DNA of 40,883 nucleotides, taken from the UHGV virus genome UHGV-0848487. The stretch is one strand, 5' to 3'. The notes under the pieces are model-generated. The model was not told the origin of the DNA and did no database searches. It saw only the letters and a program-made list of their open reading frames with translations. Position numbers and translations under genes: made by a program. Position 1 is the first letter of the stretch; each line of letters opens with the position of its first letter. Below, in pieces: positions 5,329-27,689 of this stretch. The DNA comes from a virus.

Positions 5329-5352
5329 GTTTCCCCTTTCTCGATAAGTAAA

Positions 5353-5372
5353 GCCCCGCCTTAAAGCGGGGC
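5353..5372 (-). terminator. hairpin GCCCCGC-loop-GCGGGGC followed by TTTAC, upstream of Rz
   Basis: Stem-loop read on minus strand; near-identical element in opposite orientation at 16780..16802. Confidence 0.4.
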
Positions 5373-5648
5373 GCTAGTCCTTATCATTTAAACATAGAAA
5401 CGGCGTAATCTCAGTAAACCAGTTACTTTTTACACAAGCAATAGAGTATGGCCCTTCCGAACGCGTCAGCGTAACTACACTCAGGACTTACGTCCCGCTC
5501 CGTTACCTGCCCGCGCCGCGGTCGCTTGTTCATACTTCACAAGCTCAGGTGGAGCTTAGCACATTTTTGGTGAAAAGTCAACTATTCGAATAGTTTATTC
5601 CAACATTTACAATTGAGTGGAATGACTGGAATAATCACAGGCACTAAA

Positions 5649-5666
5649 AAGCCCCTTTCGGGGCTT
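5649..5666. terminator. intrinsic terminator hairpin (bidirectional-looking)
   Basis: AAGCCCC-tttc-GGGGCTT flanked by A5 on plus side (U-tract on minus strand) just downstream of the 153-aa gene. Confidence 0.6.
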
Positions 5667-5670
5667 CAGT

Positions 5671-6132
5671 TTATTCTTGCTTAGTAACCTTCGCTGCTTT
5701 ACTTACGGCCTCTATACCATCGGCATCAGTGACTTTAACGAAGTATTCACCAACTGCGTTAACCGTCAGAGACAGAGCCTCTTCCGGGGCGTTTACCACT
5801 TCCTTCCCGTCTTTGTACCAGGTCAGCGCATATGGTGCTTTGCCCGCCTTAACTTCGACAGCGATATTTGCGCTGCCGTCTGCCAGTTCAGCGTCCTGCG
5901 GTTGTACGGAGAAATACACATCACCAGCATCCGCCAGGTACTGAATCTCATAAAGCATACCTGCCGCTGGCAGCGCAATACCGGTCTTGTCCGCAAACGG
6001 CATATCGTCCACTGGTGTTCCGAGTACACTTTCGTCTTCAATAAACACCACGTTCTCGCCAGAGCCAGACACGCGGGCGTACTGGACTACGCGACGAGAC
6101 GGTACGTCAGTTACTTTGAAAAAGCCCATCAT
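5671..6132 (-). CDS. Ig-like domain head protein (decoration-like, putative)
   Basis: 153 aa; C-terminal segment YALTWYKDGKEV...GEYFVKVTDADG resembles Ig-like fold signature; ATGA overlap with upstream MuF-like gene. Confidence 0.3.
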   Translation of the reverse strand: MMGFFKVTDVPSRRVVQYARVSGSGENVVFIEDESVLGTPVDDMPFADKTGIALPAAGMLYEIQYLADAGDVYFSVQPQDAELADGSANIAVEVKAGKAPYALTWYKDGKEVVNAPEEALSLTVNAVGEYFVKVTDADGIEAVSKAAKVTKQE

Positions 6133-7208
6133 TATTCCCCTTTCAGATAATCAGCAACACGTTTATCGAGTTCCGCCATCTGCTTAAGCGTGAGCGGATT
6201 CCCGAAACCATCTACAGATATTACGCGAAACTCTTCCGGCGATATACCGCTGTTACGGAAAATCTTACCTCGCACCGGGCCGAGCGCCTGGTCCTGAAAC
6301 CACGCCGGTTGTTGTTTAAGGAACTCGTAGTAAGTGGTGTCTACGCTTACCTGAGTGCCACCTTCCGCGCCTTTAGCCGCGCGTTTTGCGCCTTTATCGA
6401 GGAAGTCGAACTCGGAACTGATTACCGGAGCCGTGCACGACCGGCAGTTCGGATGGGCAGGGGGCATCGGCCCCTTACCAATTTCCCACGTCATCCCGTC
6501 TCTGACCCTGCAAATCGTACTGGTGCGGCTGTCAAGCGTTGACACCCACTCGTACTTCTCGATGATGTCGTCGTTCTGGCGGTACGTCTCGTTACGGGCT
6601 TCGTTGGACACGTGAGACAGCGCGGTGCGGATGACGGTAGCGGCGTTACGCTCAGAGATGTCAGCCAGCCCACCGGCGCCTACTACATTCTTAACAATCT
6701 GCCGTGTTGTTTGACCTTGTACAAAGCCCATCTTAACGCCGGTTACAAGACGTGCTACTTCCGTTTCACCCCAACCTGACATCAGTTTAGTGAAATCAAC
6801 TGGCTTGCCACTCAATGATAATGGCTGAAACTCAGCAGCGGCCCACACCTGTTCGGCGGTGGGCGTAACAAATTCCGCATCTACGTTGGCGGTCAGGGTC
6901 TTTACGTTCCACTCAGCTTCATACACCGCCAGTTCCTTGAGGTCTTCTGCCAGCTTTGTTTGCCAGTCACCAGTAAGTCCTGTCAGTACTTCTTCAAGGT
7001 CACGTAACAGTTTATTCAGTCGCGCAGTGCTGCGACCGTCGTCGCCGAATAGCAGCACCTGCCGTTTGATTTCGTCCCGCATCTCCTTAATGAACGGCGC
7101 GAGGTCTTTCACCTCACCGGATGCGGTGCGTTGCAGCCATATTTGGTGGCTGATTAGTGATGTAAGTAAGCTCATAGATAAACCCTGTGGCGCTAAAGTT
7201 AATAGCAT
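6132..7208 (-). CDS. head morphogenesis protein (Mu F-like / SPP1 gp7-like minor head protein)
   Basis: 358 aa located directly after portal; conserved-looking C-terminal region with HPNCRSCTAPV motif. Confidence 0.65.
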   Translation of the reverse strand: MLLTLAPQGLSMSLLTSLISHQIWLQRTASGEVKDLAPFIKEMRDEIKRQVLLFGDDGRSTARLNKLLRDLEEVLTGLTGDWQTKLAEDLKELAVYEAEWNVKTLTANVDAEFVTPTAEQVWAAAEFQPLSLSGKPVDFTKLMSGWGETEVARLVTGVKMGFVQGQTTRQIVKNVVGAGGLADISERNAATVIRTALSHVSNEARNETYRQNDDIIEKYEWVSTLDSRTSTICRVRDGMTWEIGKGPMPPAHPNCRSCTAPVISSEFDFLDKGAKRAAKGAEGGTQVSVDTTYYEFLKQQPAWFQDQALGPVRGKIFRNSGISPEEFRVISVDGFGNPLTLKQMAELDKRVADYLKGE

Positions 7209-7218
7209 ACTATAAGAA

Positions 7219-7234
7219 AGCCCCTTTCGGGGCT
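7219..7234 (-). terminator. hairpin AGCCCC-tttc-GGGGCT between portal and MuF-like genes
   Basis: Same GCCCC-TTTC-GGGGC core as 5649..5666; weak U-tract on minus strand (TTCTT). Confidence 0.35.
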
Positions 7235-7244
7235 ATATGTGAAC

Positions 7245-8738
7245 TTACTGCTGGGTGGGGTCTTTTTGCTGCGCCGACTGCGGAATCTCCCCAGCCACCT
7301 GAGCAACAGCACCTAATGGCAGAGGCGCATCCTCGATAGCGTTCTGAATGTCCTCGTCTGTCCAGTCAGTTACCCCCGCCTTACGCAACGCAGCATAGTA
7401 AGCGGTAGCCGGTAACAGGCCCGCGTTAATATCCGCCATCCACTGCGCGCGGTCCTGAGCGGTCATTGGTTGCAGGAAGAACTCCATGTTCAGTTTGAAC
7501 TCAATTTCAGTGCTGTCGCTAATCCCAAGCATACCCGCGACCCAGCGCAACGCATCGGTATACGCCATGCTTACGTTACGTGCGATTGTTGCCATAACGG
7601 ACGTATCAGCGCCGCGTTGCAGGCGTGCCGATTCCGCGGTGATTTGCTGCGTCGGGGTAATAAGCTGTGCACCAATCTGGATTGCCTGGTTCTCTTTATC
7701 CAACATGTTCTGCTTGGCTAGGTTGTTCTCACCGGCCTGGACCAGAAACGCATTGCCGCCGTAACCGATGTTATGGCCGGAACGTGACCCCATACGCACT
7801 CCGTGAGGGTTGGCTTCTTTCCATTGCCCCATGCTCATGTTCTCACCGGGGGCGATGAACAGAGTAGGCTGGCCTACGACGAAGCTGGACTCCTCATTGT
7901 CCGCGCTGTTGCGGAAGTGCCCGATATTAAGTTCAGCCAACGGCAGCAAAGGTGCATCGTCAGGGGTTGAGTCGTTATTCCCTGCACCAATGAATGTGAA
8001 CGGAATCACCCCGACCGGAATATTACCGAGTTTCGGGAATATTTCGATATAGCCACCTTCCATCAGTGCACCTTTCTGGTTAAAGCGGTACAGACGCTGG
8101 CGATACTGGCCTTCGAAAATATCAAGGACGCGGTATTGCTCGCCGTAGTTGGGGCTGAACTCATCCGCGCCATCGGTGTACTCGTATTCCTCACGCAATA
8201 CAACCATAACCACACGATTAACAGACCCGACGCGCTGGAGACGCCAGTTGATGATATTCTCTGCGGTGTAGAAAGCGATTGTTGGGTTTAGTAAACCCTC
8301 GTTTTGCTCTGCCATGGTAGCTACTTCTACCGCGGGGGCGTCAACCAGCAACCCACCGCGACCAACAGCATCAATCTCATACAGAGTATCCTGTGCGTGC
8401 TGCCACAGGCCAACGCCCGACCCGTCACAGTTAGTGGTCAGGTATTCCATCTGAGACGGAATAATCATCTCGGGGTCTTTGCGCATTACGCTGCCGACCA
8501 TGCCTGAAAGCGTTCGCTTGGTGAAGTTGTAGCAAATTGCCCCTGCTTCGTATTCAGCCTGACGCTGGCGACCGTAAACCGGGTCCGGCTCATTCTTACC
8601 GACGTCACGTAGATACGATGTCAGGTCGCCAGAAAGCGCATGTCGCACCTTCTGCCACTTAGGGAAATACTCTTCGTACTGGCGGTGGTGGGTTTTAACG
8701 TTCTGCCCTTGCCCTGCGTTAATGTTTGCGGAAACCAT
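7245..8738 (-). CDS. portal protein
   Basis: 497 aa ORF immediately downstream of terminase large subunit and upstream of MuF-like gene. Confidence 0.65.
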   Translation of the reverse strand: MVSANINAGQGQNVKTHHRQYEEYFPKWQKVRHALSGDLTSYLRDVGKNEPDPVYGRQRQAEYEAGAICYNFTKRTLSGMVGSVMRKDPEMIIPSQMEYLTTNCDGSGVGLWQHAQDTLYEIDAVGRGGLLVDAPAVEVATMAEQNEGLLNPTIAFYTAENIINWRLQRVGSVNRVVMVVLREEYEYTDGADEFSPNYGEQYRVLDIFEGQYRQRLYRFNQKGALMEGGYIEIFPKLGNIPVGVIPFTFIGAGNNDSTPDDAPLLPLAELNIGHFRNSADNEESSFVVGQPTLFIAPGENMSMGQWKEANPHGVRMGSRSGHNIGYGGNAFLVQAGENNLAKQNMLDKENQAIQIGAQLITPTQQITAESARLQRGADTSVMATIARNVSMAYTDALRWVAGMLGISDSTEIEFKLNMEFFLQPMTAQDRAQWMADINAGLLPATAYYAALRKAGVTDWTDEDIQNAIEDAPLPLGAVAQVAGEIPQSAQQKDPTQQ

Positions 8739-8749
8739 TTGTTGTCCTC

Positions 8750-10000
8750 TTAAAGTGCGAAAGTCACCGGGATGTTGATTACTGGTTTAACCACCGGCAT
8801 CTCGTAAACTACAGGATAGCCGAGAGCATCCGCCATATGGTCAATGACGCCGTCTTTAGCTGGCTCTCCGTTATCATCGTATGCCTGCTGCTCCAGCGTC
8901 TTCGCTATCTCGGGGCATAAGTGGTCATTAACCCACAGCTTACCTTTTTCCAGTGCGGTATTCACGGCTAAAACACGGTCTTTAACCGGAGGGTTGGCGG
9001 ATTTAGCGCGAACATCGAAACCGGCCTGCTGGAGTAACGCAATATCTGAGATTGACGCCGAGTTGGTCTTGCGGTTCTTGCCGCTGGCGTCCGGGTAAAC
9101 GACTATGCGGTGGCCCTGCGACTTCCACTTCTCAGTAATTACACGCACGGTGTCCGGCGTATCAAACAGACCTTTCAGTTCTGCCACCGCGTGCCAGCCG
9201 TCTTTACGTTGCACATACACGGCGCTGGCGTTCTTCGTAACGTTGAAGTCCTGCCCGATGTACAGTGTATCGCCCGGTTGAATTGTCTCTTTGCTGCGGT
9301 GCTTGCGACGGTCATACGCATAATACACGCTGCCGGATGTCAGGTTAACGAACTCACCGTTCAGGTACGCGTTAATCAGTTGCGCGGGGTAAGTCTCGGT
9401 CAGTGAGCTAATGTAGTCAGGCGGCAGGAATCGCGCGTTCTCGTGTGTAGAAGCCTGCACCATCGAGTAACTCGGCGTCGGGTTCTCTTTGAACTTGGCG
9501 TAGACGAACTTGAACCCTTCCGGTGTCGTGGTGACAGAGATGTGGTTAGTTACGCCGGGGATAACCAGACGCATACGGGCGACTATTTTGTTCCACGCCA
9601 GCTCAGCTTTCTCACGGCTCAATACATCAAGCTCATCCACGACCGCAGCAGCGATTTTGAAGCCGACTATCGAGCCTGGGTTATCCATAGAACGGCAGAT
9701 AACTGTACCTAGCACCGTCTTACCGCGAGTAACCACGACTTCTTTGTCGCCAGATTTAACCAGCACATCGAGGCCGAGCAGGTTAGCGGCTTCCTCAAAT
9801 GTCGGGTAGAAGATGTCACGGATAGCCGGGTATGTCGGGCCGAAGTAACCCAGGCGCGTACCTGGATGCTTGAGCATAAACGTAAGCAGGTCAAGGCAGC
9901 CAACAAATGTCTTTCCGCTGCCGAAGCCGCCGACATAGGCTTTGTATTTGTTATCGCAATTCAGGAACAGTGCCTGCGGTGCGGATAGCTGAATACTCAT
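8750..10000 (-). CDS. terminase large subunit
   Basis: Walker A GGFGSGKT, Walker B-like AAAVVDE, C-terminal nuclease-like acidic motifs; 416 aa. Confidence 0.9.
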   Translation of the reverse strand: MSIQLSAPQALFLNCDNKYKAYVGGFGSGKTFVGCLDLLTFMLKHPGTRLGYFGPTYPAIRDIFYPTFEEAANLLGLDVLVKSGDKEVVVTRGKTVLGTVICRSMDNPGSIVGFKIAAAVVDELDVLSREKAELAWNKIVARMRLVIPGVTNHISVTTTPEGFKFVYAKFKENPTPSYSMVQASTHENARFLPPDYISSLTETYPAQLINAYLNGEFVNLTSGSVYYAYDRRKHRSKETIQPGDTLYIGQDFNVTKNASAVYVQRKDGWHAVAELKGLFDTPDTVRVITEKWKSQGHRIVVYPDASGKNRKTNSASISDIALLQQAGFDVRAKSANPPVKDRVLAVNTALEKGKLWVNDHLCPEIAKTLEQQAYDDNGEPAKDGVIDHMADALGYPVVYEMPVVKPVINIPVTFAL

Positions 10001-10542
10001 TCCTCTACCTCACCCATATTCGTTGTTACAATTTTACCTACAGGCTCTGCAACACTAAAAATAATCTCAGTCGGTGCTGTTTCTTCTGTGGACTCAACCG
10101 GTTTCTCTTTGCTGAGGCCCAGTTTAGCTGCGGCGAACGTAGCAGAGATGCCCGCGGCCCCTGTCTCAGTGAAATATGCCTCTTCCAGCGCCTGTGCTGT
10201 TTCATAGGCTTCTGCAAATGCGGGAATCTCACACAGCCACAGCTTAATAATCGGGATAGTTACGCCGATGTGTAAGGCGAAGCGGGCCAGTGACGGGGGT
10301 TTATCCTGAATCAGCGGGCGTTCGTCACCCTTAGACGTAGGCACGAGTTCCCACGACGTGCGGTCGAAGAACTCGATTAGCGCGTCGCAATAATCCGGGT
10401 CCCACAGCGCGGCGGAATTACGGGATGATTGATAAAGGCTCTGTTTACCGCGCGGTCGTTTACGGCGGCGGTTTGCACTAACAGCTTCTTCATGTGCAGC
10501 TTGCACCACCTCTGGCGATGGCTGCTTGAGTTTCAGCTTCAT
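9997..10542 (-). CDS. terminase small subunit (putative)
   Basis: ATGA overlap with terminase large subunit; preferred start ATG 10542 (MKLKLKQ) after AAGGGGA; basic N-terminal region. Confidence 0.45.
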   Translation of the reverse strand: MKLKLKQPSPEVVQAAHEEAVSANRRRKRPRGKQSLYQSSRNSAALWDPDYCDALIEFFDRTSWELVPTSKGDERPLIQDKPPSLARFALHIGVTIPIIKLWLCEIPAFAEAYETAQALEEAYFTETGAAGISATFAAAKLGLSKEKPVESTEETAPTEIIFSVAEPVGKIVTTNMGEVEE

Positions 10543-10564
10543 AGAATCCCCTTGCATATGCGTC

Positions 10565-10600
10565 TAAAGGGATTATATAAGGTGATTGGGCAGGATGTAC
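10565..10600 (-). promoter_or_regulatory. candidate late promoter (TATAAT -10, poor -35) upstream of terminase small subunit
   Basis: Minus strand reads caccTTATATAATccc about 30 nt upstream of the terminase small subunit ATG, immediately after a terminator. Confidence 0.3.
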
Positions 10601-10624
10601 AGAAAAGCCCTCGGTAGAGGGCTT
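10601..10624 (-). terminator. intrinsic terminator separating early small-gene block from late operon
   Basis: AAGCCCTC-ggta-GAGGGCTT with U-tract on minus strand. Confidence 0.55.
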
Positions 10625-10726
10625 GTATCAGTTGTATAGGCCGTGGCGTGGTGCTCTTTTACCGTCGCCGCCGTAATGGTCGTTAGCTACGGGAATGGCC
10701 CGGGCGTTAGGGATGATTAGTAGTCT

Positions 10727-10883
10727 CATTTGAAGAAACCATCCTTGACAAGCTGACGGTATAGTTTAGCTGCGTAACGCTCTGCCTGGCCTTTGCGCCG
10801 AAATATTTTCCCATTAACTGAATACTTATTTAACTCTGGCTCGTACCAAACTTGGTTGTCGATGAACTCCAGAATACTAATCA
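10727..10883 (-). CDS. hypothetical protein (52 aa)
   Basis: ATG at 10881-10883 overlapping upstream stop (ATGA); MISILEFIDNQVWYEPELNKYSVNGKIFRRKGQAERYAAKLYRQLVKDGFFK. Confidence 0.35.
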
Positions 10884-11117: not shown

Positions 11118-11284
11118 CCTAAGAAATTCCTCGTTGTCCACATCGCATTCGGATATTTGTTATCGCGGTCCTGCACTACGGCAACCATGTTACCGCGTTG
11201 CACCAGGCAAAAGTGCCGTTGTTGCTCGCCGTTGTAACGACGCCAGATTGCTTCTTCGATTGCCGCGTTAATGTCACTGAACAT
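11114..11284 (-). CDS. hypothetical protein (56 aa)
   Basis: ATG 11282-11284; stop overlaps next start; under ORF-track cutoff. Confidence 0.3.
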   Translation of the reverse strand: MFSDINAAIEEAIWRRYNGEQQRHFCLVQRGNMVAVVQDRDNKYPNAMWTTRNFLG

Positions 11285-11286
11285 AA

Positions 11287-11469
11287 TCACCCCACTATCT
11301 CATCACCAAGCCACGCCGTTTCTCGTATATCGTCGACCACACAGGCGGCGTGCTCACGGCTAATTGCAAAAATGTAGAAACTAAACTTCTTCCCGTCGGC
11401 GTCGATATGGTTAACCGAGTAGGGTTTCCACAGGACACCATCAATTACTACTGGTTTAGGCGACTCCAT
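11287..11469 (-). CDS. hypothetical protein (60 aa)
   Basis: ORF track; part of tightly packed early operon. Confidence 0.35.
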   Translation of the reverse strand: MESPKPVVIDGVLWKPYSVNHIDADGKKFSFYIFAISREHAACVVDDIRETAWLGDEIVG

Positions 11470-11713
11470 ACGCTTTACCGCATTTTAAGCATGTGACTCG
11501 ATGCACCCCATCAACTAAATGCAGGCGGTAATCATGCTCGCAGGCGTTCATCTTTTCCTCTTCTCCTCTCAACAACATGAGAAGAACCTTAAATGCGGCT
11601 AACTGGTACTCACCGTTAATTGACAGTTGCCCGCCTAACGTCTGTTTCTCCGACTCAAGCACCAGAATACGGCGCTCGAGCGATGCGATTGTGATTTTAG
11701 GCATTGGTGTCAC
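11456..11713 (-). CDS. hypothetical coiled-coil / zinc-ribbon protein (85 aa)
   Basis: N-terminal heptad-like region, C-terminal CEHDY...CLKCGK Cys pairs. Confidence 0.4.
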   Translation of the reverse strand: MTPMPKITIASLERRILVLESEKQTLGGQLSINGEYQLAAFKVLLMLLRGEEEKMNACEHDYRLHLVDGVHRVTCLKCGKAYGVA

Positions 11714-11882
11714 CTTTGTTCAGGTTGAAGCGGTTAATCAGTTCACGGCGTGTCTCGTATAGCGACTCAACCATTTGCTCGGCTACCGCGATTTTAGTAT
11801 TCAGGACGTACATCACGTGCCCGATGTCTACGCCGCCGTCAACGGCCTCTACCATCATCTTTTCATATTCGCGGTCAGTCAT
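11697..11882 (-). CDS. hypothetical protein
   Basis: Track ORF 11697..11897; preferred ATG 11882 (MTDREYEK) overlapping upstream stop. Confidence 0.35.
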   Translation of the reverse strand: MTDREYEKMMVEAVDGGVDIGHVMYVLNTKIAVAEQMVESLYETRRELINRFNLNKGDTNA

Positions 11883-12034
11883 TTCTTCTCTCCCCACATG
11901 CGATTGAGATACTTGTTCTTGTCCGGCCCAGGGAAACTGTTACGTTTCATCAGTTCCTCGCGTGTCGGGAACGGAGTGTGACTTACTTTACGACCTACGC
12001 GTAACGGTTGGCTTATCTGACCTTGTTCGCTCAT
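11879..12034 (-). CDS. hypothetical protein (51 aa)
   Basis: ATG 12032-12034 after GGAGAG; ends ...GEKK with ATGA overlap; under track cutoff. Confidence 0.3.
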   Translation of the reverse strand: MSEQGQISQPLRVGRKVSHTPFPTREELMKRNSFPGPDKNKYLNRMWGEKK

Positions 12035-12180
12035 TTCTTCTCTCCTGCATAAGCTGCTTTCAGTGTCTGCATCGCGGCGAACCAGAACGCGTCCGCAGGA
12101 ATGCTGTTGCTCAGGTTACTAACGGCGATGCGTGCCATCAGTTGCGCATCTTTGAATGCTTCGGTATCTGTGATTTTCAT
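12031..12180 (-). CDS. hypothetical protein (49 aa)
   Basis: ATG 12178-12180 after GGAG; ends ...GEKK; shares 15-nt junction repeat with neighbour. Confidence 0.3.
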   Translation of the reverse strand: MKITDTEAFKDAQLMARIAVSNLSNSIPADAFWFAAMQTLKAAYAGEKK

Positions 12181-12213
12181 CTTCTCTACTCCGTTCTCGT
12201 TGTCGATGGAGTA

Positions 12214-12242
12214 AATATAATTGGTGTGAGAGTAATAGTCAA
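12214..12242 (-). promoter_or_regulatory. sigma70-like promoter TTGACT-N17-TATATT (minus strand)
   Basis: Read on minus strand upstream of the 12180 gene block. Confidence 0.4.
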
Positions 12243-12271
12243 CTAGTCATTGCGGAAGATAGATAAAAAAA

Positions 12272-12296
12272 ATCCCGGCTGGGTCAGGGCCGGGAT
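12272..12296 (-). terminator. strong intrinsic terminator
   Basis: ATCCCGGC-9 nt loop-GCCGGGAT followed by 7-8 U on minus strand. Confidence 0.7.
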
Positions 12297-12375
12297 AAAA
12301 CTGGAGAGCAGAGGGATGGAACAGGAGGTGATTTAAGTATCGTCGGATTAGTCTCAGGTGTCAATTGGTAAAATA

Positions 12376-12400
12376 AAACCCGAATTCGCGGTCCGGGTTT
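12376..12400 (-). terminator. intrinsic terminator downstream of endolysin
   Basis: AAACCCG-11 nt loop-CGGGTTT followed by TATTTTA on minus strand. Confidence 0.45.
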
Positions 12401-12529
12401 CGGTCATAAGCCCCTGAACCCTACGCAGTCTCCACCGCTTGGGCTGCTGCTTCAGGTTTACCAGGGCTTAGTATGCAAATACGAAAAACTTGGCCTGACC
12501 ATAATACTAAACGCCTTCGTATTCGTCCA

Positions 12530-13033
12530 TCATTTAACTGCCCTCCCGATAGCTTCAGCCTCTCGCCACGGTTTACCGTCGAACAGCGCCAGACGTCCGG
12601 CAACACGTCGACGTAGACCAAGCACAGGCTCGAGTTTACCTGTTTTCGGGTTGCGCTGGTTAATAAACTGACTCATCTTGTGCCGTAAGGTAGGGATGTC
12701 ACCCTGCCGTAGTGCCTTACCGGTTCCGGTATTAGCTGCGATAACACCAGTTCCTGCGTTGAACACCAGGTCAACAACAGCATCAAACTGAGCCTGGGTA
12801 AGTGACGGATGTGCCACCTCGTCGACCGCTTTCACCGCCCACTGCATATCGCGGTTCAGTAACAGCAGCCCCTGGCCCTCAGTAATCTTCTGTCCTTCGT
12901 ACACATCCGGCCCGGTATGGCCCCAGCCGATAGTCCAGTATTTTTCGTTCTTTGTTGCTTTGTATGCAGTTCCGCGGAACCCTTCGAACGCTGCGGTAAA
13001 ATGCGATCCATTATCTGAAATGTTTCGAGACAC
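12530..13033 (-). CDS. endolysin, glycoside hydrolase family 24 (T4/P22-type lysozyme)
   Basis: Motifs FEGFRGTAY ... TIGWGHTG ... LTQAQFDAVVDLVFNAG match phage lysozyme catalytic Glu/Asp/Thr region and helical core. Confidence 0.9.
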   Translation of the reverse strand: MSRNISDNGSHFTAAFEGFRGTAYKATKNEKYWTIGWGHTGPDVYEGQKITEGQGLLLLNRDMQWAVKAVDEVAHPSLTQAQFDAVVDLVFNAGTGVIAANTGTGKALRQGDIPTLRHKMSQFINQRNPKTGKLEPVLGLRRRVAGRLALFDGKPWREAEAIGRAVK

Positions 13034-13283
13034 GCTTGTGCCCTCCGTACGATAGCCACGCCTGACGAATCTGACGCAGCGCGACTAATGTGATTAATGT
13101 CTCGGGCAGCGTTGGCGACATGCTGCCCTGTAACAGGTGGATACTCCCGGCGGCGCAGACGATAGCGGTCAGGATATAGAGCACCCGACCGAATAATCCG
13201 TCATCAACGCTGGGGTGGTATACATTAAACAGCGATGTGCCCCCGATTGCCAGCATACCGCCGAACCAGAATAGCTCATTCAT
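13011..13283 (-). CDS. membrane protein, holin/antiholin-like
   Basis: 90 aa with two hydrophobic segments, between holin and endolysin. Confidence 0.5.
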   Translation of the reverse strand: MNELFWFGGMLAIGGTSLFNVYHPSVDDGLFGRVLYILTAIVCAAGSIHLLQGSMSPTLPETLITLVALRQIRQAWLSYGGHKRVSKHFR

Positions 13284-13584
13284 CCGGGCCTCCTCGACGT
13301 GAGATGTATTCTCCGGCGACGATACCAGAGAGACGGGAATAGATAGGCATCCAGAGAATGGCGATGATGAATCCGAGGCCAGCTATCTCGCGCTCGCCGG
13401 TAATACCGAACCATTGGGCAGCGAGAGGTGCACCAAATACAGCGCAGGTGAAGCCGGTTGCGATAAAGCAGAAGCCGTCGATAGGGCCGGAAATAACGGA
13501 CTTATGTTGTCGTAGTCCGATAACCCCTCCGGCTAGTGCGGCAGCGAGAAGCCACCCCGTCACTGTTTCAGTAAATTTATCCAA
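13276..13584 (-). CDS. holin (putative, multi-TMD)
   Basis: 102 aa with three hydrophobic helices and charged C-terminus; TTG start preceded by GGAGGA; first gene of lysis cassette. Confidence 0.55.
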   Translation of the reverse strand: MDKFTETVTGWLLAAALAGGVIGLRQHKSVISGPIDGFCFIATGFTCAVFGAPLAAQWFGITGEREIAGLGFIIAILWMPIYSRLSGIVAGEYISRRGGPDE

Positions 13585-13589
13585 GATGA

Positions 13590-13629
13590 ATCCTCCAGGT
13601 GCGTATTAAGTATGCAGTAACTGGAGGAT
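13590..13629 (-). promoter_or_regulatory. 9-bp inverted repeat that can sequester the holin Shine-Dalgarno
   Basis: ATCCTCCAG ...22 nt... CTGGAGGAT; 3' arm contains the GGAGGA RBS 6 nt before holin start. Confidence 0.45.
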
Positions 13630-13659
13630 AGCACGGTTAGGAATTATCTTAATAACGGT

Positions 13660-13962
13660 TTATTTATGTCTCCAGATGTATTGTCGTCTCTGCGGCTTCG
13701 TCGGAATATCATTGTATCCCAGCGATTTCCAGTAATTAAATAACCGGTTAGCGATAGCTGCGCGTTCCTTTGTTTTAAACTCACCGAGATTCACGGCCTT
13801 CCCGTTCTGGAACCCACAGGCGCGGACAGCCTTGCGTCTGGCCTGAATCTCTGGGTACAGCGCGTTACGGCGGCGCTTGTATATCTGTGTTTTAGCTCTC
13901 GGTGACAGCGGCGCAAGGCCGCTTCGTTTCAGGATGCCAGGCTCATAGGTCGAGAATCTCAC
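13660..13962 (-). CDS. basic hypothetical protein (possible nucleic-acid binding)
   Basis: 100 aa, Arg/Lys-rich; directly upstream of lysis cassette. Confidence 0.35.
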   Translation of the reverse strand: MRFSTYEPGILKRSGLAPLSPRAKTQIYKRRRNALYPEIQARRKAVRACGFQNGKAVNLGEFKTKERAAIANRLFNYWKSLGYNDIPTKPQRRQYIWRHK

Positions 13963-14122
13963 GCGCTAATTCATCCGTCTTCCAGTCGCACGGGCTGTTT
14001 AACACCTGCTTAGCGAACCCTCGAAGTTTGCGCTCCAGCTCCACGTAATCTTCGTAGCGGACAAAATTACCTTCCAGGGCCTGAAACATATCGCCGTGGT
14101 CGTTTTCATATCTATGTACCAT
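13943..14122 (-). CDS. hypothetical protein (59 aa)
   Basis: Track ORF 13943..14167; preferred ATG 14122 overlapping upstream stop (TGATG). Confidence 0.3.
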   Translation of the reverse strand: MVHRYENDHGDMFQALEGNFVRYEDYVELERKLRGFAKQVLNSPCDWKTDELAREILDL

Positions 14123-14301
14123 CACTCCACCCCTTCCACACGTGTAATTGACCCGCAGTTCGCGCACTCGACATAATCCGGGAACTGGTCTTTGTATTTC
14201 TGCAACTCGGCTTCGAGTTTCACGTAAGCGCTATATAAGACCCAGTGTCCTTCATCATACGGGGCGACAAAACCGCCTTGTAATAAATATCTCTGTACCA
14301 T
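14122..14301 (-). CDS. hypothetical CxxC protein (59 aa)
   Basis: ATG 14299-14301 after AGGGGAAG; contains ECANCG motif; under track cutoff. Confidence 0.35.
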   Translation of the reverse strand: MVQRYLLQGGFVAPYDEGHWVLYSAYVKLEAELQKYKDQFPDYVECANCGSITRVEGVE

Positions 14302-14303
14302 AA

Positions 14304-14507
14304 TTACTTCCCCTGTTTACCAATGCGTTTAGGTGAGCAGATAGCGCGTATCTCTGAATCGTTAGGCTTGTCGCCCTGAAACAGAAAGTGCGCGTTCTCT
14401 GCGGCGCGTGCCGCGGACTGGCACGCCTCCATCGAATAAAACGTTTCTGATGCCGCTAGTTGCATCTGGCCCGCCGACAGTACCCAGATAAATAAGATGC
14501 TGGTCAT
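14304..14507 (-). CDS. small secreted/periplasmic protein (signal peptide), hypothetical
   Basis: Preferred ATG 14507 (MTSILFIWVLSAGQMQLAAS...) overlapping upstream stop; hydrophobic N-terminus then about 45 aa with two Cys. Confidence 0.4.
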   Translation of the reverse strand: MTSILFIWVLSAGQMQLAASETFYSMEACQSAARAAENAHFLFQGDKPNDSEIRAICSPKRIGKQGK

Positions 14508-15052
14508 CAGAAGTATTCCCCACACGTTTTACATACTTTCGTACCGAACGGCGCGGAGCCATCTGTTATTACATAATAGAAACTGTGTTTGCACTCCCGT
14601 GTACAGGCTGTTGGCTCATACTCAAGTCCGCCCCACTCACGCTTGCCGCATTCGCAGCAAAACCGGCTACCGGGCACGTTGTCCTTGTGGCCTTCGGCAA
14701 TAAACAATCCTGGAGCGATAATCCAATTGTGGTCACATTCCTGCGTATCTTCTTTTCGGCAACCAGATTGCTCCGAACCGTACGCACCTTTGCGGATAAG
14801 TTTGTATGCCTCCACGTCACCAGTAGCCTCAACCAATGCCAGATGCAACTCCTTAACTTGCCCTGTCAGGTGCGATATGTGCTCAGATTTCTTAATGTTG
14901 TCTTCCCGCAACTCCTTAATCTGCGCCGACGCATCACGTAACTGATTCTTAAGTGACTGCACCTCATGCGCCAGGTCTTCGCTCCGGCTGTTATTTACCT
15001 GCTGCCGTAGCTGGTCGATCAGGTACTCGAATATTTCGTTTTTGTTACTCAT
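14507..15052 (-). CDS. coiled-coil plus Cys-rich zinc-ribbon-like protein, hypothetical
   Basis: Preferred start MSNKNEIFEYL; N-terminal heptad region; C-terminal CDHNW...CCECGK...CTRECK...CKTCGEYF. Confidence 0.45.
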   Translation of the reverse strand: MSNKNEIFEYLIDQLRQQVNNSRSEDLAHEVQSLKNQLRDASAQIKELREDNIKKSEHISHLTGQVKELHLALVEATGDVEAYKLIRKGAYGSEQSGCRKEDTQECDHNWIIAPGLFIAEGHKDNVPGSRFCCECGKREWGGLEYEPTACTRECKHSFYYVITDGSAPFGTKVCKTCGEYF

Positions 15053-15212
15053 CAGCTTCACCCCTTTTCTCATCCACCCCGACTAGCAGCGATTTAGTGT
15101 CGCCGCCACACACCGAAGTGCTACTAATTATTTCGTAAGCGTCTACCAGTTCGCCTAAAGTCCAGCTACCGTACCAGCCCACCTCTGTCTCTCCTCTCGC
15201 TTGTGTAAATGA

Positions 15213-15241
15213 ATAGTAGCCTATTCTATCTTAGTGTGCAA
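15213..15241 (-). promoter_or_regulatory. sigma70-like promoter TTGCAC-N17-TACTAT (minus strand) overlapping GAATAG palindrome
   Basis: Minus strand TTGCACactaagatagaataggcTACTATtcattta; near-identical to promoters at 16507..16535 and 37733..37761. Confidence 0.5.
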
Positions 15242-15248
15242 GTAAATT

Positions 15249-15422
15249 TTATTGATGTGTTATGGAGTCGATGAATGCCAGTAACTCCCTTTCCGCTTCT
15301 GCCTCTCTTTCTTCAAGCGACCAGGTAGCGGATTCCTCTGTCGCCGTTGCTAAATCGGTTTTCGCATCAACCATCGTGTCGATTAACGTGATTAGTCGTT
15401 CAGCCTGTTCTTTAGTAATCAT
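15249..15422 (-). CDS. hypothetical protein (57 aa)
   Basis: ATG 15420-15422 after AGGAG; MITKEQAERLITLIDTMVDAKTDL...; the overlapping plus-strand Ser-rich ORF 15262..15483 is judged a shadow. Confidence 0.4.
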   Translation of the reverse strand: MITKEQAERLITLIDTMVDAKTDLATATEESATWSLEEREAEAERELLAFIDSITHQ

Positions 15423-15502
15423 TGTTGCATCTCCTGCAATAGTCGCTTCGATTGTTGCGTTTGATGAAAGTGTCGCCTTTTGACGACACTAAGTTAAAGT
15501 TG

Positions 15503-15524
15503 TACGCTGCTGTGTAGCAGCGTA
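15503..15524 (-). terminator. hairpin ACGCTGCT-gtgt-AGCAGCGT downstream of the 15557 gene
   Basis: Perfect 8-bp stem; modest U content after it on minus strand. Confidence 0.35.
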
Positions 15525-15556
15525 AGTCACTCAGTAAAATCCCAAACTATTGAACA

Positions 15557-15757
15557 TCACACTTCTGGCGGCTCGGGTAACGGCATCCAGTGCGTCACGT
15601 ACTTATCGTAGTGATTCCAGAAAGGCTTTCTCCCGTCATCAGGAACTATGTAATAATCGTGCTGAACTGCGTTATTTAACGTTTCATACACCAGGAACTC
15701 TTTATCCGTATACCCATTACCCGGCAGCATCTCACTACACTTAATCCACTCACCCAT
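15557..15757 (-). CDS. DUF551-like protein (66 aa)
   Basis: C-terminal THWMPLPEPP motif; paralog on the plus strand at 20925..21182 ends ITHWMYLPELPEG. Confidence 0.5.
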   Translation of the reverse strand: MGEWIKCSEMLPGNGYTDKEFLVYETLNNAVQHDYYIVPDDGRKPFWNHYDKYVTHWMPLPEPPEV

Positions 15758-15905
15758 ACCTCACACCTCTTTCAATCAAGGATTGCACACCAGCTTTCCA
15801 CGCCCGCCACGCGAGACGCGTCTTAACGTTCAGGTACTCTTTCTTTGAACCCTTGTTAACCGGCAGACCCTCGACCACAGCCCACCGTTCAAATGCTTCT
15901 CTCAT
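15750..15905 (-). CDS. hypothetical protein (51 aa)
   Basis: ATG 15903-15905 overlapping upstream stop (ATGA); under track cutoff. Confidence 0.3.
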   Translation of the reverse strand: MREAFERWAVVEGLPVNKGSKKEYLNVKTRLAWRAWKAGVQSLIERGVRYG

Positions 15906-16090
15906 ACCAGAACCTCACATTCATCCCGATACGCGAACAATAACGACCCTTTGTACTCAATCATAAAACCATAATGGTTGATGCTGAACGCCGGAAAAAC
16001 ATCACCTACCGAGATACCGAAATCTATAAGCCTGCGGTCAGTTATACGGACAAGCCTGCGGTCAGTTATACGGATTCGCATTAACGGCAA
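15902..16090 (-). CDS. hypothetical protein (62 aa) containing a 24-bp in-frame tandem duplication
   Basis: ORF track; peptide RITDRRLV duplicated. Confidence 0.4.
   Translation of the reverse strand: MPLMRIRITDRRLVRITDRRLIDFGISVGDVFPAFSINHYGFMIEYKGSLLFAYRDECEVLV
16028..16075. repeat. 24-bp tandem direct duplication (2 copies, 23/24 identical)
   Basis: aagcctgcggtcagttatacgga repeated head-to-tail. Confidence 0.9.
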
Positions 16091-16284
16091 CCTCCCTCAG
16101 AGTCGTCGGCACAAGCATCACGATTCGATGCCGTTTTGATTGCCTGTAAGCTATTTAGCATTTGCTGGCTATCCATCGTAATAATTGTAATCCCGTCCGA
16201 TAAATGCACCTCGTAGCGTTCAGCTACGAAATATATTTCCTCGAAATCATGATGTTTCAGTTCTTCAAATAATTCTTCCATCAC
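16081..16284 (-). CDS. acidic hypothetical protein (67 aa)
   Basis: ORF track; early leftward operon. Confidence 0.4.
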   Translation of the reverse strand: MMEELFEELKHHDFEEIYFVAERYEVHLSDGITIITMDSQQMLNSLQAIKTASNRDACADDSEGGCR

Positions 16285-16472
16285 TTCGCCCCTTTGAATT
16301 TAAAATTGTTGCCAATGAGTTTTAAGTTCTCCTCTTCTACGTATATTTGTGAATTTACCCCTCTCACCTTTTGCACGGTCACTACGTACTCACCGGGAAA
16401 TAAATTAGATTTTAATTCAATTATGCCGTGTTCACCGTCGGCGCATTTAACCAACTGACCATTCTTAAACAT
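16281..16472 (-). CDS. hypothetical protein, first gene of leftward early operon
   Basis: Preferred ATG 16472 (MFKNGQLVKC) after AGGAG about 10 nt upstream. Confidence 0.4.
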   Translation of the reverse strand: MFKNGQLVKCADGEHGIIELKSNLFPGEYVVTVQKVRGVNSQIYVEEENLKLIGNNFKFKGAK

Positions 16473-16506
16473 AACCCTCACTCCTCTGTCTCGTTCCGAT
16501 AAGTGA

Positions 16507-16535
16507 ATAGTATCCTATTATGTTGGGGCGTGCAA
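16507..16535 (-). promoter_or_regulatory. sigma70-like promoter TTGCAC-N17-TACTAT (minus strand) overlapping GAATAG palindrome
   Basis: Minus strand TTGCACgccccaacataataggaTACTATtcactta, about 25 nt upstream of the 16472 gene. Confidence 0.5.
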
Positions 16536-16594
16536 GAGATTAGTTACGTTGCCGTTGTGATTCTTTCGTTTCTTAAAGGAGTACGCAACGCAGT

Positions 16595-16614
16595 GGGTGG
16601 GCGTTAGCCCACCC
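16595..16614. promoter_or_regulatory. GC-rich 8-bp hairpin GGGTGGGC-gtta-GCCCACCC in early intergenic region
   Basis: Perfect stem, no U-tract on either strand. Confidence 0.3.
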
Positions 16615-16779
16615 CAGCGGAGTGAAGTACTCTCTACCTCACTCACGGCAACTATAGAAACTTTTAATTATCAGTGACTTATGAAGGAGGGTAAAATTTA
16701 AATAGACGGGGGCTTTCTTGCCACTTGCTGTTACTGGGATGAAACTTAGATACTAACGTTACCAAGAGTACTGTTTAGC

Positions 16780-16802
16780 GCCCCGCTTTAGGGCGGGGCT
16801 TT
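16780..16802 (+). terminator. hairpin GCCCCGC-loop-GCGGGGC followed by TTTA
   Basis: Near-identical to the element at 5353..5372 but in opposite orientation. Confidence 0.35.
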
Positions 16803-16956
16803 AAGTACCCGAGACTTAAGAATGATGTTTCTAAGTAATTCTGAATTAAGGTCCTTCGATACATTGATTTTACAGCTACATTTTATTTTGTCAATAGGTT
16901 GTGTTTGGCTATTGTAGGTGTTATAGTTGTTTCACTTGATAAAGAGGGCACGTAAA

Positions 16957-23164: not shown

Positions 23165-23187
23165 AAGGCCCTTCATTGGGCCTTTTT
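23165..23187 (+). terminator. hairpin AAGGCCC-ttcatt-GGGCCTT followed by TTT
   Basis: Between SSB-like gene and polymerase. Confidence 0.45.
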
Positions 23188-27661: not shown

Positions 27662-27665
27662 AGAA

Positions 27666-27685: not shown

Positions 27686-27689
27686 AGTT

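What the first reader, a model, noticed from the sequence alone, without database searches (positions are those of the whole stretch)
5353..16802. Duplicated terminator hairpins: an inverted pair of a 28-bp element, and convergent-junction terminators with identical stems but complementary loops
AGCGCCCCGCTTTA(A/G)GGCGGGGCTTTA occurs at 5348-5375 (minus sense) and 16777-16804 (plus sense). Separately, AAGGCCCC-gttt-GGGGCCTT-agTTTTAT at 27666-27693 and AAGGCCCC-aaac-GGGGCCTT-agTTTTAT at 40192-40219 share stems and flanks but have reverse-complementary loops, as if the loop alone had inverted. A third family, GCCCC-TTTC-GGGGC, occurs at 5651-5664 and 7220-7233. Such reuse suggests modular exchange or duplication of terminator cassettes, and the loop inversion is an unusual signature.
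Basis: seen in the sequence. Interest (0 to 1): 0.4.

Follow-up and report, generated by a model that had tools for sequence, protein, structure and literature searches.

The report
Reused phage terminator hairpins with flipping loops
The repeated hairpins are real transcription-terminator-type stem-loops at the gene-module boundaries of an E. coli K1 phage, and comparison with relatives shows that the four-base loop of the two-way terminators flips orientation again and again, an ordinary kind of element showing a tidy example of a known mutation process.

Summary
The window is a complete, circularly permuted Kagunavirus genome (K1H-like E. coli K1 phage).

The AAGGCCCC-N4-GGGGCCTT hairpins at 27666 and 40192 sit at the genome's two convergent gene junctions. 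They look like bidirectional intrinsic terminators. This family is almost confined to this phage group, with 2-3 copies per genome.

At each orthologous site in relatives, the flanks and stems stay constant while the loop occurs in reverse-complement pairs: GTTT/AAAC, GAAA/TTTC, GGAA/TTCC. Loop orientation shows no phylogenetic signal. Terminators between co-directional genes never flip. So "the loop alone inverted" is supported. The likely cause is stem-mediated template switching, a known mechanism.

The hairpins are also exact module boundaries. One conserved flank faces 27 unrelated tailspike flanks, and promoter-ORF-terminator morons sit at the 5651 and 7220 sites in relatives.

The 28-nt pair is different. 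Copy A (5349-5376) is a conserved hairpin that closes a highly conserved, unannotated 246-nt unit. That unit holds a sigma-70-like promoter and a covariation-supported structured RNA with no Rfam match. Copy B occurs only in the K1G/K1H clade.

The terminators are ordinary. The flip-flop and the RNA are the modestly new parts.

The parts
27660..27693 (.). T27, a candidate bidirectional intrinsic terminator (hairpin 27666-27685, AAGGCCCC-GTTT-GGGGCCTT). It lies between the stop codon of a small + strand ORF (TAG ending at 27662) and the stop codon of the - strand tailspike (endosialidase) gene 27690..30644. The tailspike TAA lies inside the shared flank TAAAACT.
   Evidence: Sequence and ORFs. 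RNA folds are -20.4 (+ strand) and -15.5 (- strand) kcal/mol, with 0 of 200 shuffles folding as well. Tails are UUUUCU on the - strand and UUAGUUUUAU on the + strand. Orthologs in about 35 relatives keep the stem and flanks; loops are GTTT 15, AAAC 7, TTTC 2, GAAA 1 and singles. The left flank forms 1 homology cluster and the right flank 27 clusters.
40187..40219 (.). T40, a candidate bidirectional intrinsic terminator (hairpin 40192-40211, AAGGCCCC-AAAC-GGGGCCTT). It lies between the dNMP-kinase-like gene (+ strand, ends 40187) and the tail tube gene (- strand, stop at 40216-40218). The tail tube gene runs across the window end and start.
   Evidence: Sequence, annotation of the relative ULINTec2, and folds of -19.1 and -15.5 kcal/mol. 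The - strand tail is UUUUUCUU. Among 47 distinct orthologous contexts, loops in window + sense are GAAA 25, TTTC 16, AAAC 2, TTCC 2, GGAA 1 and GTAA 1.
5340..5385 (-). Hairpin A. The 28-nt repeat arm is 5349-5376, and the inner stem is GCCCCGCU/GGCGGGGC with loop UUAA. An outer stem GAUAAG/CUUAUC with a 3-nt bulge extends it. It lies 24 nt upstream of the ATG at 5328, the start of a 128-aa gene that precedes the scaffold and major capsid genes.
   Evidence: Sequence; fold of -22.5 kcal/mol with 0 of 200 shuffles as good. It is conserved in 37 IMG/VR loci, with a compensatory change GCCCUGC/GCAGGGC in 2 loci. Jersey-like relatives carry a hairpin at the same position with different stems (GCCCGGC/GCCGGGC, GCCCGAC/GUCGGGC) and an outer stem UAUACG/CGUAUA. 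The tail UUUACUUAUC is a weak U-tract.
16768..16813 (+). Hairpin B, the second copy of the 28-nt element (16776-16803), in the opposite orientation. Its outer stem is different (GUACU/AGUAC). It lies in the variable segment 16681-16936 of the divergent early control region.
   Evidence: Sequence; fold of -21.1 kcal/mol. Among the fetched IMG/VR early-region loci, the segment is present only in L079, L080 and L116 besides the window. Only 2 IMG/VR contigs carry two copies of the pattern. Only 9 phage records, all K1H, K1G, K1ind2/3, LM02P1 or EC3-1, carry the segment.
5649..5666 (-). T5651, a terminator-type hairpin (AAGCCCC-GAAA-GGGGCUU followed by UUU on the - strand). It lies right after the stop codon of the fibritin-like gene 5671..6132.
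   Evidence: -15.5 kcal/mol. Among orthologs without an insert, the sequences listed show TTTC throughout plus one TTCC, read on the + strand. In many relatives the site holds an inserted moron.
7219..7234 (-). T7220, a hairpin (AGCCCC-GAAA-GGGGCU followed by UUCUUAUAG on the - strand). It lies between the portal gene (7245..8738) and the 358-aa head gene (6132..7208).
   Evidence: -13.4 kcal/mol. Of 22 distinct orthologous contexts, 21 have TTTC and 1 has TATC, and none is flipped. It is a moron insertion site in relatives.
23165..23184 (+). T23161, an additional family member (AAGGCCC-UUCAUU-GGGCCUU followed by UUUAC). It lies between gene 22519..23145 and the DNA polymerase gene 23205..25385.
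   Evidence: repeats I3 and I7 share the flanks AACTAAGGCC..GGCCTTTTT; -13.7 kcal/mol. It is conserved in 47 loci without any loop flip.
5438..5552 (-). A conserved structured RNA (model R1) with two stem-loops, immediately downstream of a sigma-70-like promoter and about 65 nt upstream of hairpin A.
   Evidence: 95.3% of cells are paired, against at most 42% when the 3' partners are slid. 15 of 28 pairs show changes on both sides. 0 of 500 shuffles reach the covariation score. There is no Rfam hit at E<=1. Only one copy is in the window. Paralogs lie in the early region of 13 of 42 relatives.
5555..5583 (-). A sigma-70-like promoter, TTGACT-17 nt-TAAGCT with TG at the extended -10 position, which would drive the structured RNA and the leader.
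   Evidence: Read from the sequence. It is conserved in all aligned relatives and in the early-region paralogs.

Best explanation
The repeats are a lineage-specific set of intrinsic-terminator-type RNA hairpins that punctuate the transcription units of a Kagunavirus.

The two AAGGCCCC-N4-GGGGCCTT elements end the two pairs of converging operons: replication genes against tailspike, and the dNMP-kinase unit against the head and tail-tube unit. They probably act in both directions. The upstream A-run of one strand is the U-tract of the other.

The stem is a perfect inverted repeat. Replication slippage between the two arms (template switching), or equivalently recombination between the arms, inverts only the 4-nt loop. 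At a terminator read from both strands this merely swaps the two transcripts' loops, so it is nearly neutral and both orientations persist. At terminators read from one strand only, the loop stays GNRA (GAAA) in the transcribed sense.

The shared stems and flanks, which include the late gene's stop codon, also serve as common joints. Tailspike modules and promoter-ORF-terminator morons are exchanged among related phages at these joints.

The 28-nt pair is a separate hairpin type. Copy A closes a highly conserved promoter plus structured-RNA leader in front of the head genes, acting as its terminator or attenuator. Copy B is a recent copy of A placed in the mosaic early control region of the K1G/K1H clade.

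Shown here: existence of the elements, their positions, conservation, covariation, loop-flip polymorphism and module boundaries. Inferred: actual termination, the template-switch mechanism, and neutrality at convergent sites.
For: - Identity of the window: best hits are Kagunavirus genomes at about 92%, and the gene map comes from ULINTec2.
- Hairpins are stable relative to shuffles. They lie 0-6 nt from stop codons at convergent junctions.
- The flank-inclusive pattern AAGGCCCCNNNNGGGGCCTTAGTTTT gives 83 hits in IMG/VR. Nearly all are in 40-45 kb contigs of this group, at 2-3 per genome.
- Loop flips at orthologous sites. T27 has GTTT 15, AAAC 7, TTTC 2 and GAAA 1. T40 has GAAA 25, TTTC 16, GGAA 1, TTCC 2 and AAAC 2. 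Other sites show GCAA/TTGC and GTAA/TTAC.
- Among instance pairs whose 40-nt flanks on both sides differ by at most 2 nt, 9 pairs differ in the loop. Five of those are exact reverse complements, against 2 single-base differences.
- Matched pairs share the same tailspike flank but have opposite loops: L128/L157 and L119/L164.
- GAAA versus TTTC needs 14 Fitch changes on 45 tips of the tail-tube tree. Random assignment gives 12.7.
- The T27 and T40 loops combine freely among genomes.
- No flips occur at co-directional sites: T7220 has TTTC in 21 of 22 contexts, and T23161 (47 loci) and A (37 loci) show none.
- A template-switch signature is seen in L014, where A's imperfect flank has become a perfect extended palindrome, GATAAGTAAAGCCCCGC..GCGGGGCTTTACTTATC.
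- The mechanism is documented elsewhere (PMC8794818 and PMC8604942).
- Module boundary. Morons.
- A and B.
Against: - There are no transcript-end data, so termination is inferred from sequence alone.
- The + strand tails of T27 and T40 (UUAGUUUUAU) and the tails of A and B (UUUA...) are interrupted or weak U-tracts.
- GTTT/AAAC is not GNRA in either sense, so the 'GNRA on one strand' argument does not cover the window's own pair.
- Frequent recombination at these junctions could spread a few ancestral flips. That would inflate the apparent number of independent inversions.
- Selection for GNRA on either strand would also enrich reverse-complement pairs, although each switch of orientation would still need an inversion or four substitutions.
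- IMG/VR contigs are not independent samples, since many come from one metagenome project.
Confidence: 0.75

Rival explanations
1. The similarities are coincidence or convergence. Any GC-rich hairpin with a tetraloop and T-rich flanks will resemble others, and complementary loops at two sites are an accident of fast loop drift.
For: Loops are the most variable part of these elements, with at least 9 variants at T27. The GTTT and AAAC combination is found in only 3 genomes and the two sites vary independently. The 17-mer shared by T5651 and T7220 is no longer than the best direct repeats in shuffles.
Against: The 28-nt pair and the 26/30 match exceed shuffles. Flanks outside the stem are shared, including the stop-codon register. 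At the same orthologous site, exact reverse-complement loops dominate the differences between near-identical relatives, with 5 of 9 pairs against 2 single-base differences and no intermediates. Drift by point substitution predicts the opposite pattern.
Confidence: 0.07
2. The hairpins act mainly at the DNA level. They would be cruciform-forming or microhomology 'linker' sequences that promote recombination between phage genomes, or binding sites for a phage protein. Termination would be secondary or absent.
For: They coincide exactly with mosaic boundaries: 27 unrelated tailspike flanks at T27, variable genes beyond T40, and morons at T5651 and T7220. Stems and flanks are more conserved than a structure-only constraint requires, with almost no compensatory variation in the AAGGCCCC stem.
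Against: Each hairpin has an A-run and T-run arrangement and sits just after stop codons. At co-directional sites the loop is fixed as GNRA in the transcribed sense, which is a constraint at the RNA level. Hairpin A shows compensatory stem changes and G-U pairs that work only on one strand. The two roles are not exclusive.
Confidence: 0.12
3. Hairpins A and B are not terminators. They would be RNA processing or stability elements, for example an RNase III-type site or a protective stem-loop in the 5' leader, or part of a regulated attenuator that is read through after the upstream structured RNA modifies RNA polymerase, as with put RNA.
For: The U-tract is weak (UUUACUUAUC, and UUAGCGUAU in Jersey-like phages). 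The hairpin lies 24 nt upstream of a start codon, between a promoter and the head genes. The extended stem of about 17 bp has a conserved bulge and covarying outer stems in A, in B and in Jersey-like phages. The upstream RNA has two stem-loops starting at about +1 of a sigma-70-like promoter. It occurs in early and late paralogs, an arrangement like putL and putR of HK022 (PMC9378689).
Against: No sequence similarity to put RNA was tested or is known. The early paralog is not followed by hairpin A. Copy B sits in a segment that lacks the RNA. Nothing here distinguishes processing from termination.
Confidence: 0.3
4. The loop is a programmed invertible switch, a miniature inverton flipped by a site-specific recombinase to change expression.
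For: Both orientations are common at the same site, and orientation shows no phylogenetic signal.
Against: The invertible segment is only 4 nt. The arms are 8 bp of a generic GC stem. No recombinase or invertase gene appears in the annotated map; the only related name is a 57-aa protein annotated 'putative excisionase', which looks like an HTH protein. Inversion leaves the hairpin and its flanks unchanged, so there is no obvious output. The same behaviour is seen at several unrelated sites.
Confidence: 0.02

Closest known systems
Bidirectional intrinsic (Rho-independent) terminators between convergent genes in bacteria and phages
   Same: A GC-rich perfect stem with a tetraloop. An A-run upstream and a T-run downstream mean that either strand yields a hairpin followed by a U-tract. 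The element is placed between the stop codons of converging genes.
   Different: Here the family is sequence-conserved, flanks included, across 2-3 sites per genome and across a phage subfamily. Function was not measured.
Template-switch (quasipalindrome) mutations: inversion of the loop or spacer between inverted repeats (PMC8794818; PMC8604942). By recollection, the 'minute inversions' at hairpins in chloroplast non-coding DNA are a further example.
   Same: The loop is replaced by its exact reverse complement while the stems are unchanged. The change recurs homoplasiously at one site. An imperfect arm converted to a perfect palindrome is also seen (L014).
   Different: The context is phage terminators at convergent junctions. 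Fixation appears restricted to sites transcribed from both strands. The mechanism is inferred and was not observed.
Morons and module 'linker' or boundary sequences of tailed phages (Hendrix and Juhala concept; Botstein modular theory; from general knowledge)
   Same: Promoter-ORF-terminator cassettes lie between late genes on the opposite strand. Conserved short sequences sit at the junctions where alleles such as tailspikes are swapped.
   Different: The window itself carries the 'empty' sites at 5651 and 7220. The cassettes were seen only in relatives.
HK022 put RNAs and the lambda PR'-6S RNA-tR' leader (analogy only, for hairpin A and the RNA upstream of it)
   Same: A promoter-proximal structured RNA with two stem-loops. 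It occurs as early and late paralogs and is followed by a terminator-like hairpin before the operon.
   Different: The RNA is about 114 nt rather than about 70 nt. No sequence relation has been shown and no antitermination has been tested. The early paralog lacks the hairpin.

Membership tests
Intrinsic (Rho-independent) terminator | Stable GC-rich stem-loop in the transcript | tested here: met
   Fold energies range from -13.4 to -22.5 kcal/mol, with z-scores from -2.5 to -4.9 against shuffles for all elements.
Intrinsic (Rho-independent) terminator | U-rich tract of about 7-9 nt immediately 3' of the stem | tested here: inconclusive
   Good on the - strand of T27 (UUUUCUCU) and T40 (UUUUUCUU), and at T5651 (UUUUUAG). 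Interrupted on the + strand of T27 and T40 (UUAGUUUUAU). Weak for A and B (UUUACUUAUC and UUUAAGUACC).
Intrinsic (Rho-independent) terminator | Position at the 3' end of a transcription unit | tested here: met
   Met for T27, T40, T5651, T7220 and T23161, which lie 0-20 nt after stop codons. Not met for A, which lies in a 5' leader, or for B, which lies in an intergenic control region.
Intrinsic (Rho-independent) terminator | Transcripts actually end there | not testable with these tools
   No RNA-seq or Term-seq data are available. Term-seq or in vitro transcription is needed.
Bidirectional terminator at a convergent junction | Lies between convergent genes, with an A-run upstream and a T-run downstream of a symmetric stem | tested here: met
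   T27 lies between a + strand ORF stop at 27662 and a - strand stop at 27690. T40 lies between a + strand stop at 40187 and a - strand stop at 40216. Both read AAAAGGCCCC..GGGGCCTTAGTTTT.
Template-switch loop (spacer) inversion | Loop replaced by its exact reverse complement with stems and flanks unchanged, at one orthologous site | tested here: met
   GTTT/AAAC and GAAA/TTTC occur at T27. GAAA/TTTC and GGAA/TTCC occur at T40. Five of the 9 loop-different pairs with near-identical flanks are exact reverse complements.
Template-switch loop (spacer) inversion | Associated homogenisation or extension of imperfect arms | tested here: met
   In L014 the imperfect flank of hairpin A has become a perfect 17-nt-arm palindrome. 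This is a single case.
Template-switch loop (spacer) inversion | Arises in one replication-dependent step | not testable with these tools
   Mutation-accumulation experiments or deep sequencing of clonal lysates are needed.
Site-specific invertible switch (inverton) | Dedicated recombinase and an invertible segment that carries a regulatory signal | tested here: not met
   No invertase or recombinase appears in the annotated gene map. The segment is 4 nt, and inversion leaves the hairpin unchanged.
Moron (promoter-ORF-terminator cassette) | Own promoter, ORF with a ribosome-binding site, and terminator, inserted between genes of another unit | tested here: met
   Seen in relatives at the T5651 and T7220 sites. 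ORFs are 57-106 aa with AGGAGG-type ribosome-binding sites, preceded by a TTGCA..ATAATAGGGTACTATTCA promoter and followed by an AAGGCCCC-type hairpin. The same ORF occurs at both sites. The window has no cassette at these two sites.
put-like cis-antitermination RNA (considered for the RNA upstream of hairpin A) | Nascent two-stem-loop RNA that makes RNA polymerase terminator-resistant | not tested
   Only the architecture was checked: two stem-loops, a promoter-proximal position, and early plus late paralogs. This is an analogy, not membership.

The most novel reading that the evidence does not exclude
Hairpin A is the 3' element of a previously undescribed, highly conserved regulatory RNA unit of Guernseyvirinae. 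The unit consists of a sigma-70-like promoter, a two-stem-loop RNA of about 114 nt with strong covariation, a conserved single-stranded spacer, and the hairpin. It sits in front of the head genes, and some genomes carry a paralog in front of the leftward early operon.

The unit could be a put-like RNA that makes RNA polymerase read through hairpin A and later terminators, or a trans-acting phage small RNA.

Separately, the loop flip-flop at convergent terminators may be fast enough to be polymorphic within single lysates.
Probability: 0.3. Interest if true: 0.7.

Novelty: new member of a known kind. Interest (0 to 1): 0.42.

Why it matters
The work gives a clean natural data set showing that short perfect hairpins invert their loops repeatedly. 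It also suggests that whether the inversion survives depends on whether the hairpin is transcribed from one strand or both. That is a simple comparative test for terminator directionality that needs no transcriptomics.

It pins the tailspike-swapping joint of K1 and Kagunavirus phages to a 30-nt terminator that includes the stop codon. This is useful for engineering host range.

It also exposes an unannotated structured RNA in 180 sequenced E. coli and Salmonella phages, many of them therapy candidates, located just upstream of one of the reported hairpins.

Tried and rejected
- Rfam scan of the whole window at E<=1 found nothing at any of the hairpins or at 5438-5552. There was one sub-threshold int-alpA hit at 37650-37714.
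- No tRNA or tmRNA genes were found.
- I looked for similarity between the regions upstream of A and B beyond the 28-mer. There is none apart from a gapped match of about 40 nt.
- A covariance-model search for a second copy of the leader RNA in the window, especially near B, found none; the best other hit scored 8.6 bits.
- I at first read the promoter-like element at 16496-16525 as a rightward promoter feeding hairpin B. Comparison with 37732-37768 and with the morons showed it is a leftward promoter for the early genes that start at 16481.
- Small ORFs in the two intergenic regions were listed. None is convincing.
- I considered gene conversion between T27 and T40 as the source of the flipped loops. 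Because the flanks are direct repeats, conversion can move a loop between sites but cannot invert it relative to the flanks, so an inversion is still required.
- The first regular expression for the right-flank census failed and was corrected.

Full report
**What the window is.** The 40,883-nt window matches Kagunavirus genomes (Guernseyvirinae; E. coli K1 phages) at about 92% identity over most of its length. Its gene order equals that of phage ULINTec2. The tail tube gene runs across the window's end and start, so the window is a complete, circularly permuted genome. The early control region is closest to phage K1H at 97.5%.

**Check of the observation.** All elements are present within 1 nt of the stated positions.
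- The 28-nt pair (5349-5376 and 16776-16803) is 27/28 complementary but only 21/28 identical when read in the same direction, so the inverted relation is genuine.
- In 100 dinucleotide-preserving shuffles, the longest inverted repeat with at most one mismatch reached 20 nt, against 28 nt observed.
- The elements at 27666 and 40192 are identical over stems and flanks (AAAAGGCCCC / GGGGCCTTAGTTTTAT). They differ only by an exactly reverse-complemented loop.
- The GCCCC-TTTC-GGGGC pair is an exact 17-mer. Length alone puts it at the edge of chance, but both copies follow stop codons and are conserved.
- A further member at 23165-23184 shares the flanks AACTAAGGCC..GGCCTTTTT.

**Context of the elements.**
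- T27 (27666) lies between the stop codon of a small + strand ORF and the stop codon of the - strand tailspike (endosialidase) gene.
- T40 (40192) lies between a dNMP-kinase-like gene (+ strand) and the tail tube gene (- strand).
- T27 and T40 are the genome's two convergent junctions. In both, the late gene's TAA stop sits in the same register inside the shared flank TAAAACT.
- All hairpins fold far better than shuffles. On the - strand, T27 and T40 are followed by UUUUCU and UUUUUCUU. On the + strand they are followed by UUAGUUUUAU.
- T5651 and T7220 follow the fibritin-like and portal genes, and the genes on either side run in the same direction. On the transcribed (-) strand their loop reads GAAA.

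**Comparative evidence on the loops.** I fetched about 390 loci from IMG/VR around five anchor genes and two DNA patterns.
- At the T27 site, the left flank and stem are invariant in about 35 relatives. Loops are GTTT (15), AAAC (7), TTTC (2), GAAA (1) and a few single variants.
- At the T40 site, 47 distinct contexts give GAAA 25, TTTC 16, TTCC 2, GGAA 1, AAAC 2 and GTAA 1.
- Other sites show GAAA/TTTC, GCAA/TTGC and GTAA/TTAC.
- Among pairs whose 40-nt flanks on both sides are nearly identical (at most 2 differences each), 9 pairs differ in the loop. Five are exact reverse complements, two differ by one base, one by two and one by three. Point substitution predicts the opposite distribution.
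- L128/L157 and L119/L164 share the same tailspike flank yet have opposite loops.
- On a tree of the adjacent tail-tube sequence, GAAA versus TTTC needs 14 changes on 45 tips. That is what random assignment gives (12.7).
- The loops at T27 and T40 combine freely among genomes. The window's GTTT plus AAAC is one combination among many.
- The co-directional hairpins never flip. T7220 has TTTC in 21 of 22 contexts. T23161 is unchanged in orientation in 47 loci, and hairpin A in 37 loci.

**Interpretation of the flips.** The stem is a perfect inverted repeat, so a template switch between its arms, or recombination between them, inverts just the loop.
- This process is documented for rRNA and microRNA hairpins and for short inverted repeats in yeast (PMC8794818 and PMC8604942).
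- One relative (L014) shows the companion signature: hairpin A's imperfect flank has been converted to a perfect 17-nt-arm palindrome.
- I infer that inversions arise at all hairpins but persist only where the hairpin is transcribed from both strands. There, a flip merely swaps the two RNAs' loops.
- Where only one strand is transcribed, the GNRA loop is kept. This also argues that the elements work at the RNA level.
- Caveats: termination itself is not measured, GTTT/AAAC is not GNRA in either sense, and recombination could spread a smaller number of ancestral flips.

**Modular exchange.**
- At T27, the 120 nt to the left form one homology cluster (34 of 35 contexts). The 80 nt to the right fall into 27 unrelated clusters, which are different tailspike genes that all end in TAAAACT plus the hairpin.
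- Beyond T40, relatives carry at least three different neighbours.
- At the T5651 and T7220 sites, many relatives carry inserts of 220-600 nt on the opposite strand. Each insert has a promoter (TTGCA..ATAATAGGGTACTATTCA), a ribosome-binding site, an ORF of 57-106 aa, and an AAGGCCCC-N4-GGGGCCTT hairpin. The same ORF (M[AT]HKFKGTDG...) occurs at both sites in different genomes.
- The flank-inclusive pattern is almost confined to this phage group, at 2-3 copies per genome.
- So "modular exchange of terminator cassettes" is well supported. It corresponds to the classical moron and linker picture.

**The 28-nt pair.**
- Copy A is conserved in every close relative examined. One compensatory stem change is seen (GCCCUGC/GCAGGGC).
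- In more distant Jersey-like phages, a hairpin with a different stem (GCCCGGC/GCCGGGC, GCCCGAC/GUCGGGC) lies at the same place, about 25 nt before the start codon.
- Its U-tract is weak. The hairpin extends into an outer stem with a bulge, and that outer stem differs but is maintained in A, in B and in the Jersey-like version.
- Copy B lies in a variable segment (16681-16936) found only in K1H, K1G, K1ind2/3 and a few others. B is identical to some alleles of A (L018).
- I read B as a recent copy of A. Its role is unresolved.

**What lies upstream of A.**
- The 313 nt between the fibritin-like gene and the next start codon are 95-99% identical among relatives, which is more conserved than the flanking genes.
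- The stretch contains a sigma-70-like promoter (TTGACT-17 nt-TAAGCT) followed by a GC-rich RNA with two stem-loops.
- Thirteen of 42 relatives carry a paralog, 79-89% identical, in the early control region, in the very segment where the window has hairpin B.
- With paralogs and Jersey-like homologues included, 15 of 28 base pairs show changes on both sides and 95% of cells pair. With slid partners at most 42% pair, and 0 of 500 shuffles reach the covariation score. That alignment was fitted to the model, which favours the structure. The independent MAFFT alignment already gave 95.9% paired, against at most 43% with slid partners.
- Rfam has no match.
- The 246-nt unit is present at 95-100% identity in 180 phage records, including 65 Salmonella phages. 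It is almost always unannotated.
- The layout resembles HK022 putL/putR (two-stem-loop nascent RNAs just downstream of early promoters; PMC9378689) or lambda's PR'-6S-tR' leader. That is an analogy and was not tested.

**Comparison with the literature, and novelty.**
- Genome papers on Kagunavirus routinely list predicted Rho-independent terminators. They also report the repeated motif tgAATAGTa-ccTATTat-T (PMC9825357).
- The terminators as such are ordinary.
- The modest additions are the recurrent loop flip-flop restricted to convergent-junction terminators, the precise terminator-embedded tailspike joint, and the structured leader RNA next to hairpin A. My literature searches did not find any of the three described.

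**Verdict.** The elements are a known kind, with a neat comparative twist and one unannotated RNA worth following up.

Noticed in passing
window 5438-5552 (- strand), promoter about 5555-5583; paralogs e.g. L088:2236-2351(-), L109:1964-2078(-): A conserved two-stem-loop RNA with its own sigma-70-like promoter. 15 of 28 pairs show compensatory changes and there is no Rfam match. The whole 246-nt unit is 95-100% identical in 180 phage records, including 65 Salmonella phages, and is almost always unannotated. Thirteen of 42 relatives have a second copy in the early control region. It may be a put-like leader or a phage small RNA.
   Followed up: partly
window 16496-16536, 19999-20028, 20043-20072, 22437-22466, 25844-25873, 15203-15244, 37730-37771: A repeated promoter family built round a palindromic core, AATAG-N4-CTATT. 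One class reads TTGACA-N-GTGAATAGTnnnCTATTATAGT. A second class reads TTGCAnnCnCCAAnATAATAGGGTACTATTCA, with the core in the opposite sense. The symmetric core looks like an operator for a dimeric regulator. The motif was reported for phage fBC-Eco01 and attributed there to a phage RNA polymerase (PMC9825357), although it fits sigma-70 spacing.
   Followed up: partly
window 16681-16936 versus L088:2216-2479 and L001:17261-17645: The early divergent control region is mosaic, with at least three unrelated alleles of similar length between conserved flanks. One contains hairpin B, one contains the RNA paralog, and one contains a different GC hairpin (GGGCAGGC-TTAA-GGCCCGCCC followed by TTTAG). 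The allele of the adjacent HTH ('excisionase-like') gene changes with it.
   Followed up: partly
window 16028-16074: An exact tandem duplication of a 23-nt unit (AAGCCTGCGGTCAGTTATACGGA) with a 24-nt period, lying among the small leftward early genes.
   Followed up: no
window 37650-37714 (- strand): A sub-threshold Rfam match to int-alpA RNA (31.8 bits against a gathering score of 35.8; E = 0.0075), just upstream of the promoter at 37732-37768.
   Followed up: no
window 10605-10624, 16595-16614, 20620-20635, 19755-19773, 17407-17433, 37049-37072: Other strong intergenic GC hairpins that are not part of the repeated families, for example AAGCCCTC-ggta-GAGGGCTT upstream of the small terminase gene and GGGTGGGC-gtta-GCCCACCC in the early leader.
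   Followed up: no
L209, L234, L237, L221, L268, L271 (T40 orthologs): The A/T run next to the T40 hairpin varies in length, from 4 to 12 T (or A) residues. This suggests slippage in the U-tract in addition to the loop flips.
   Followed up: no
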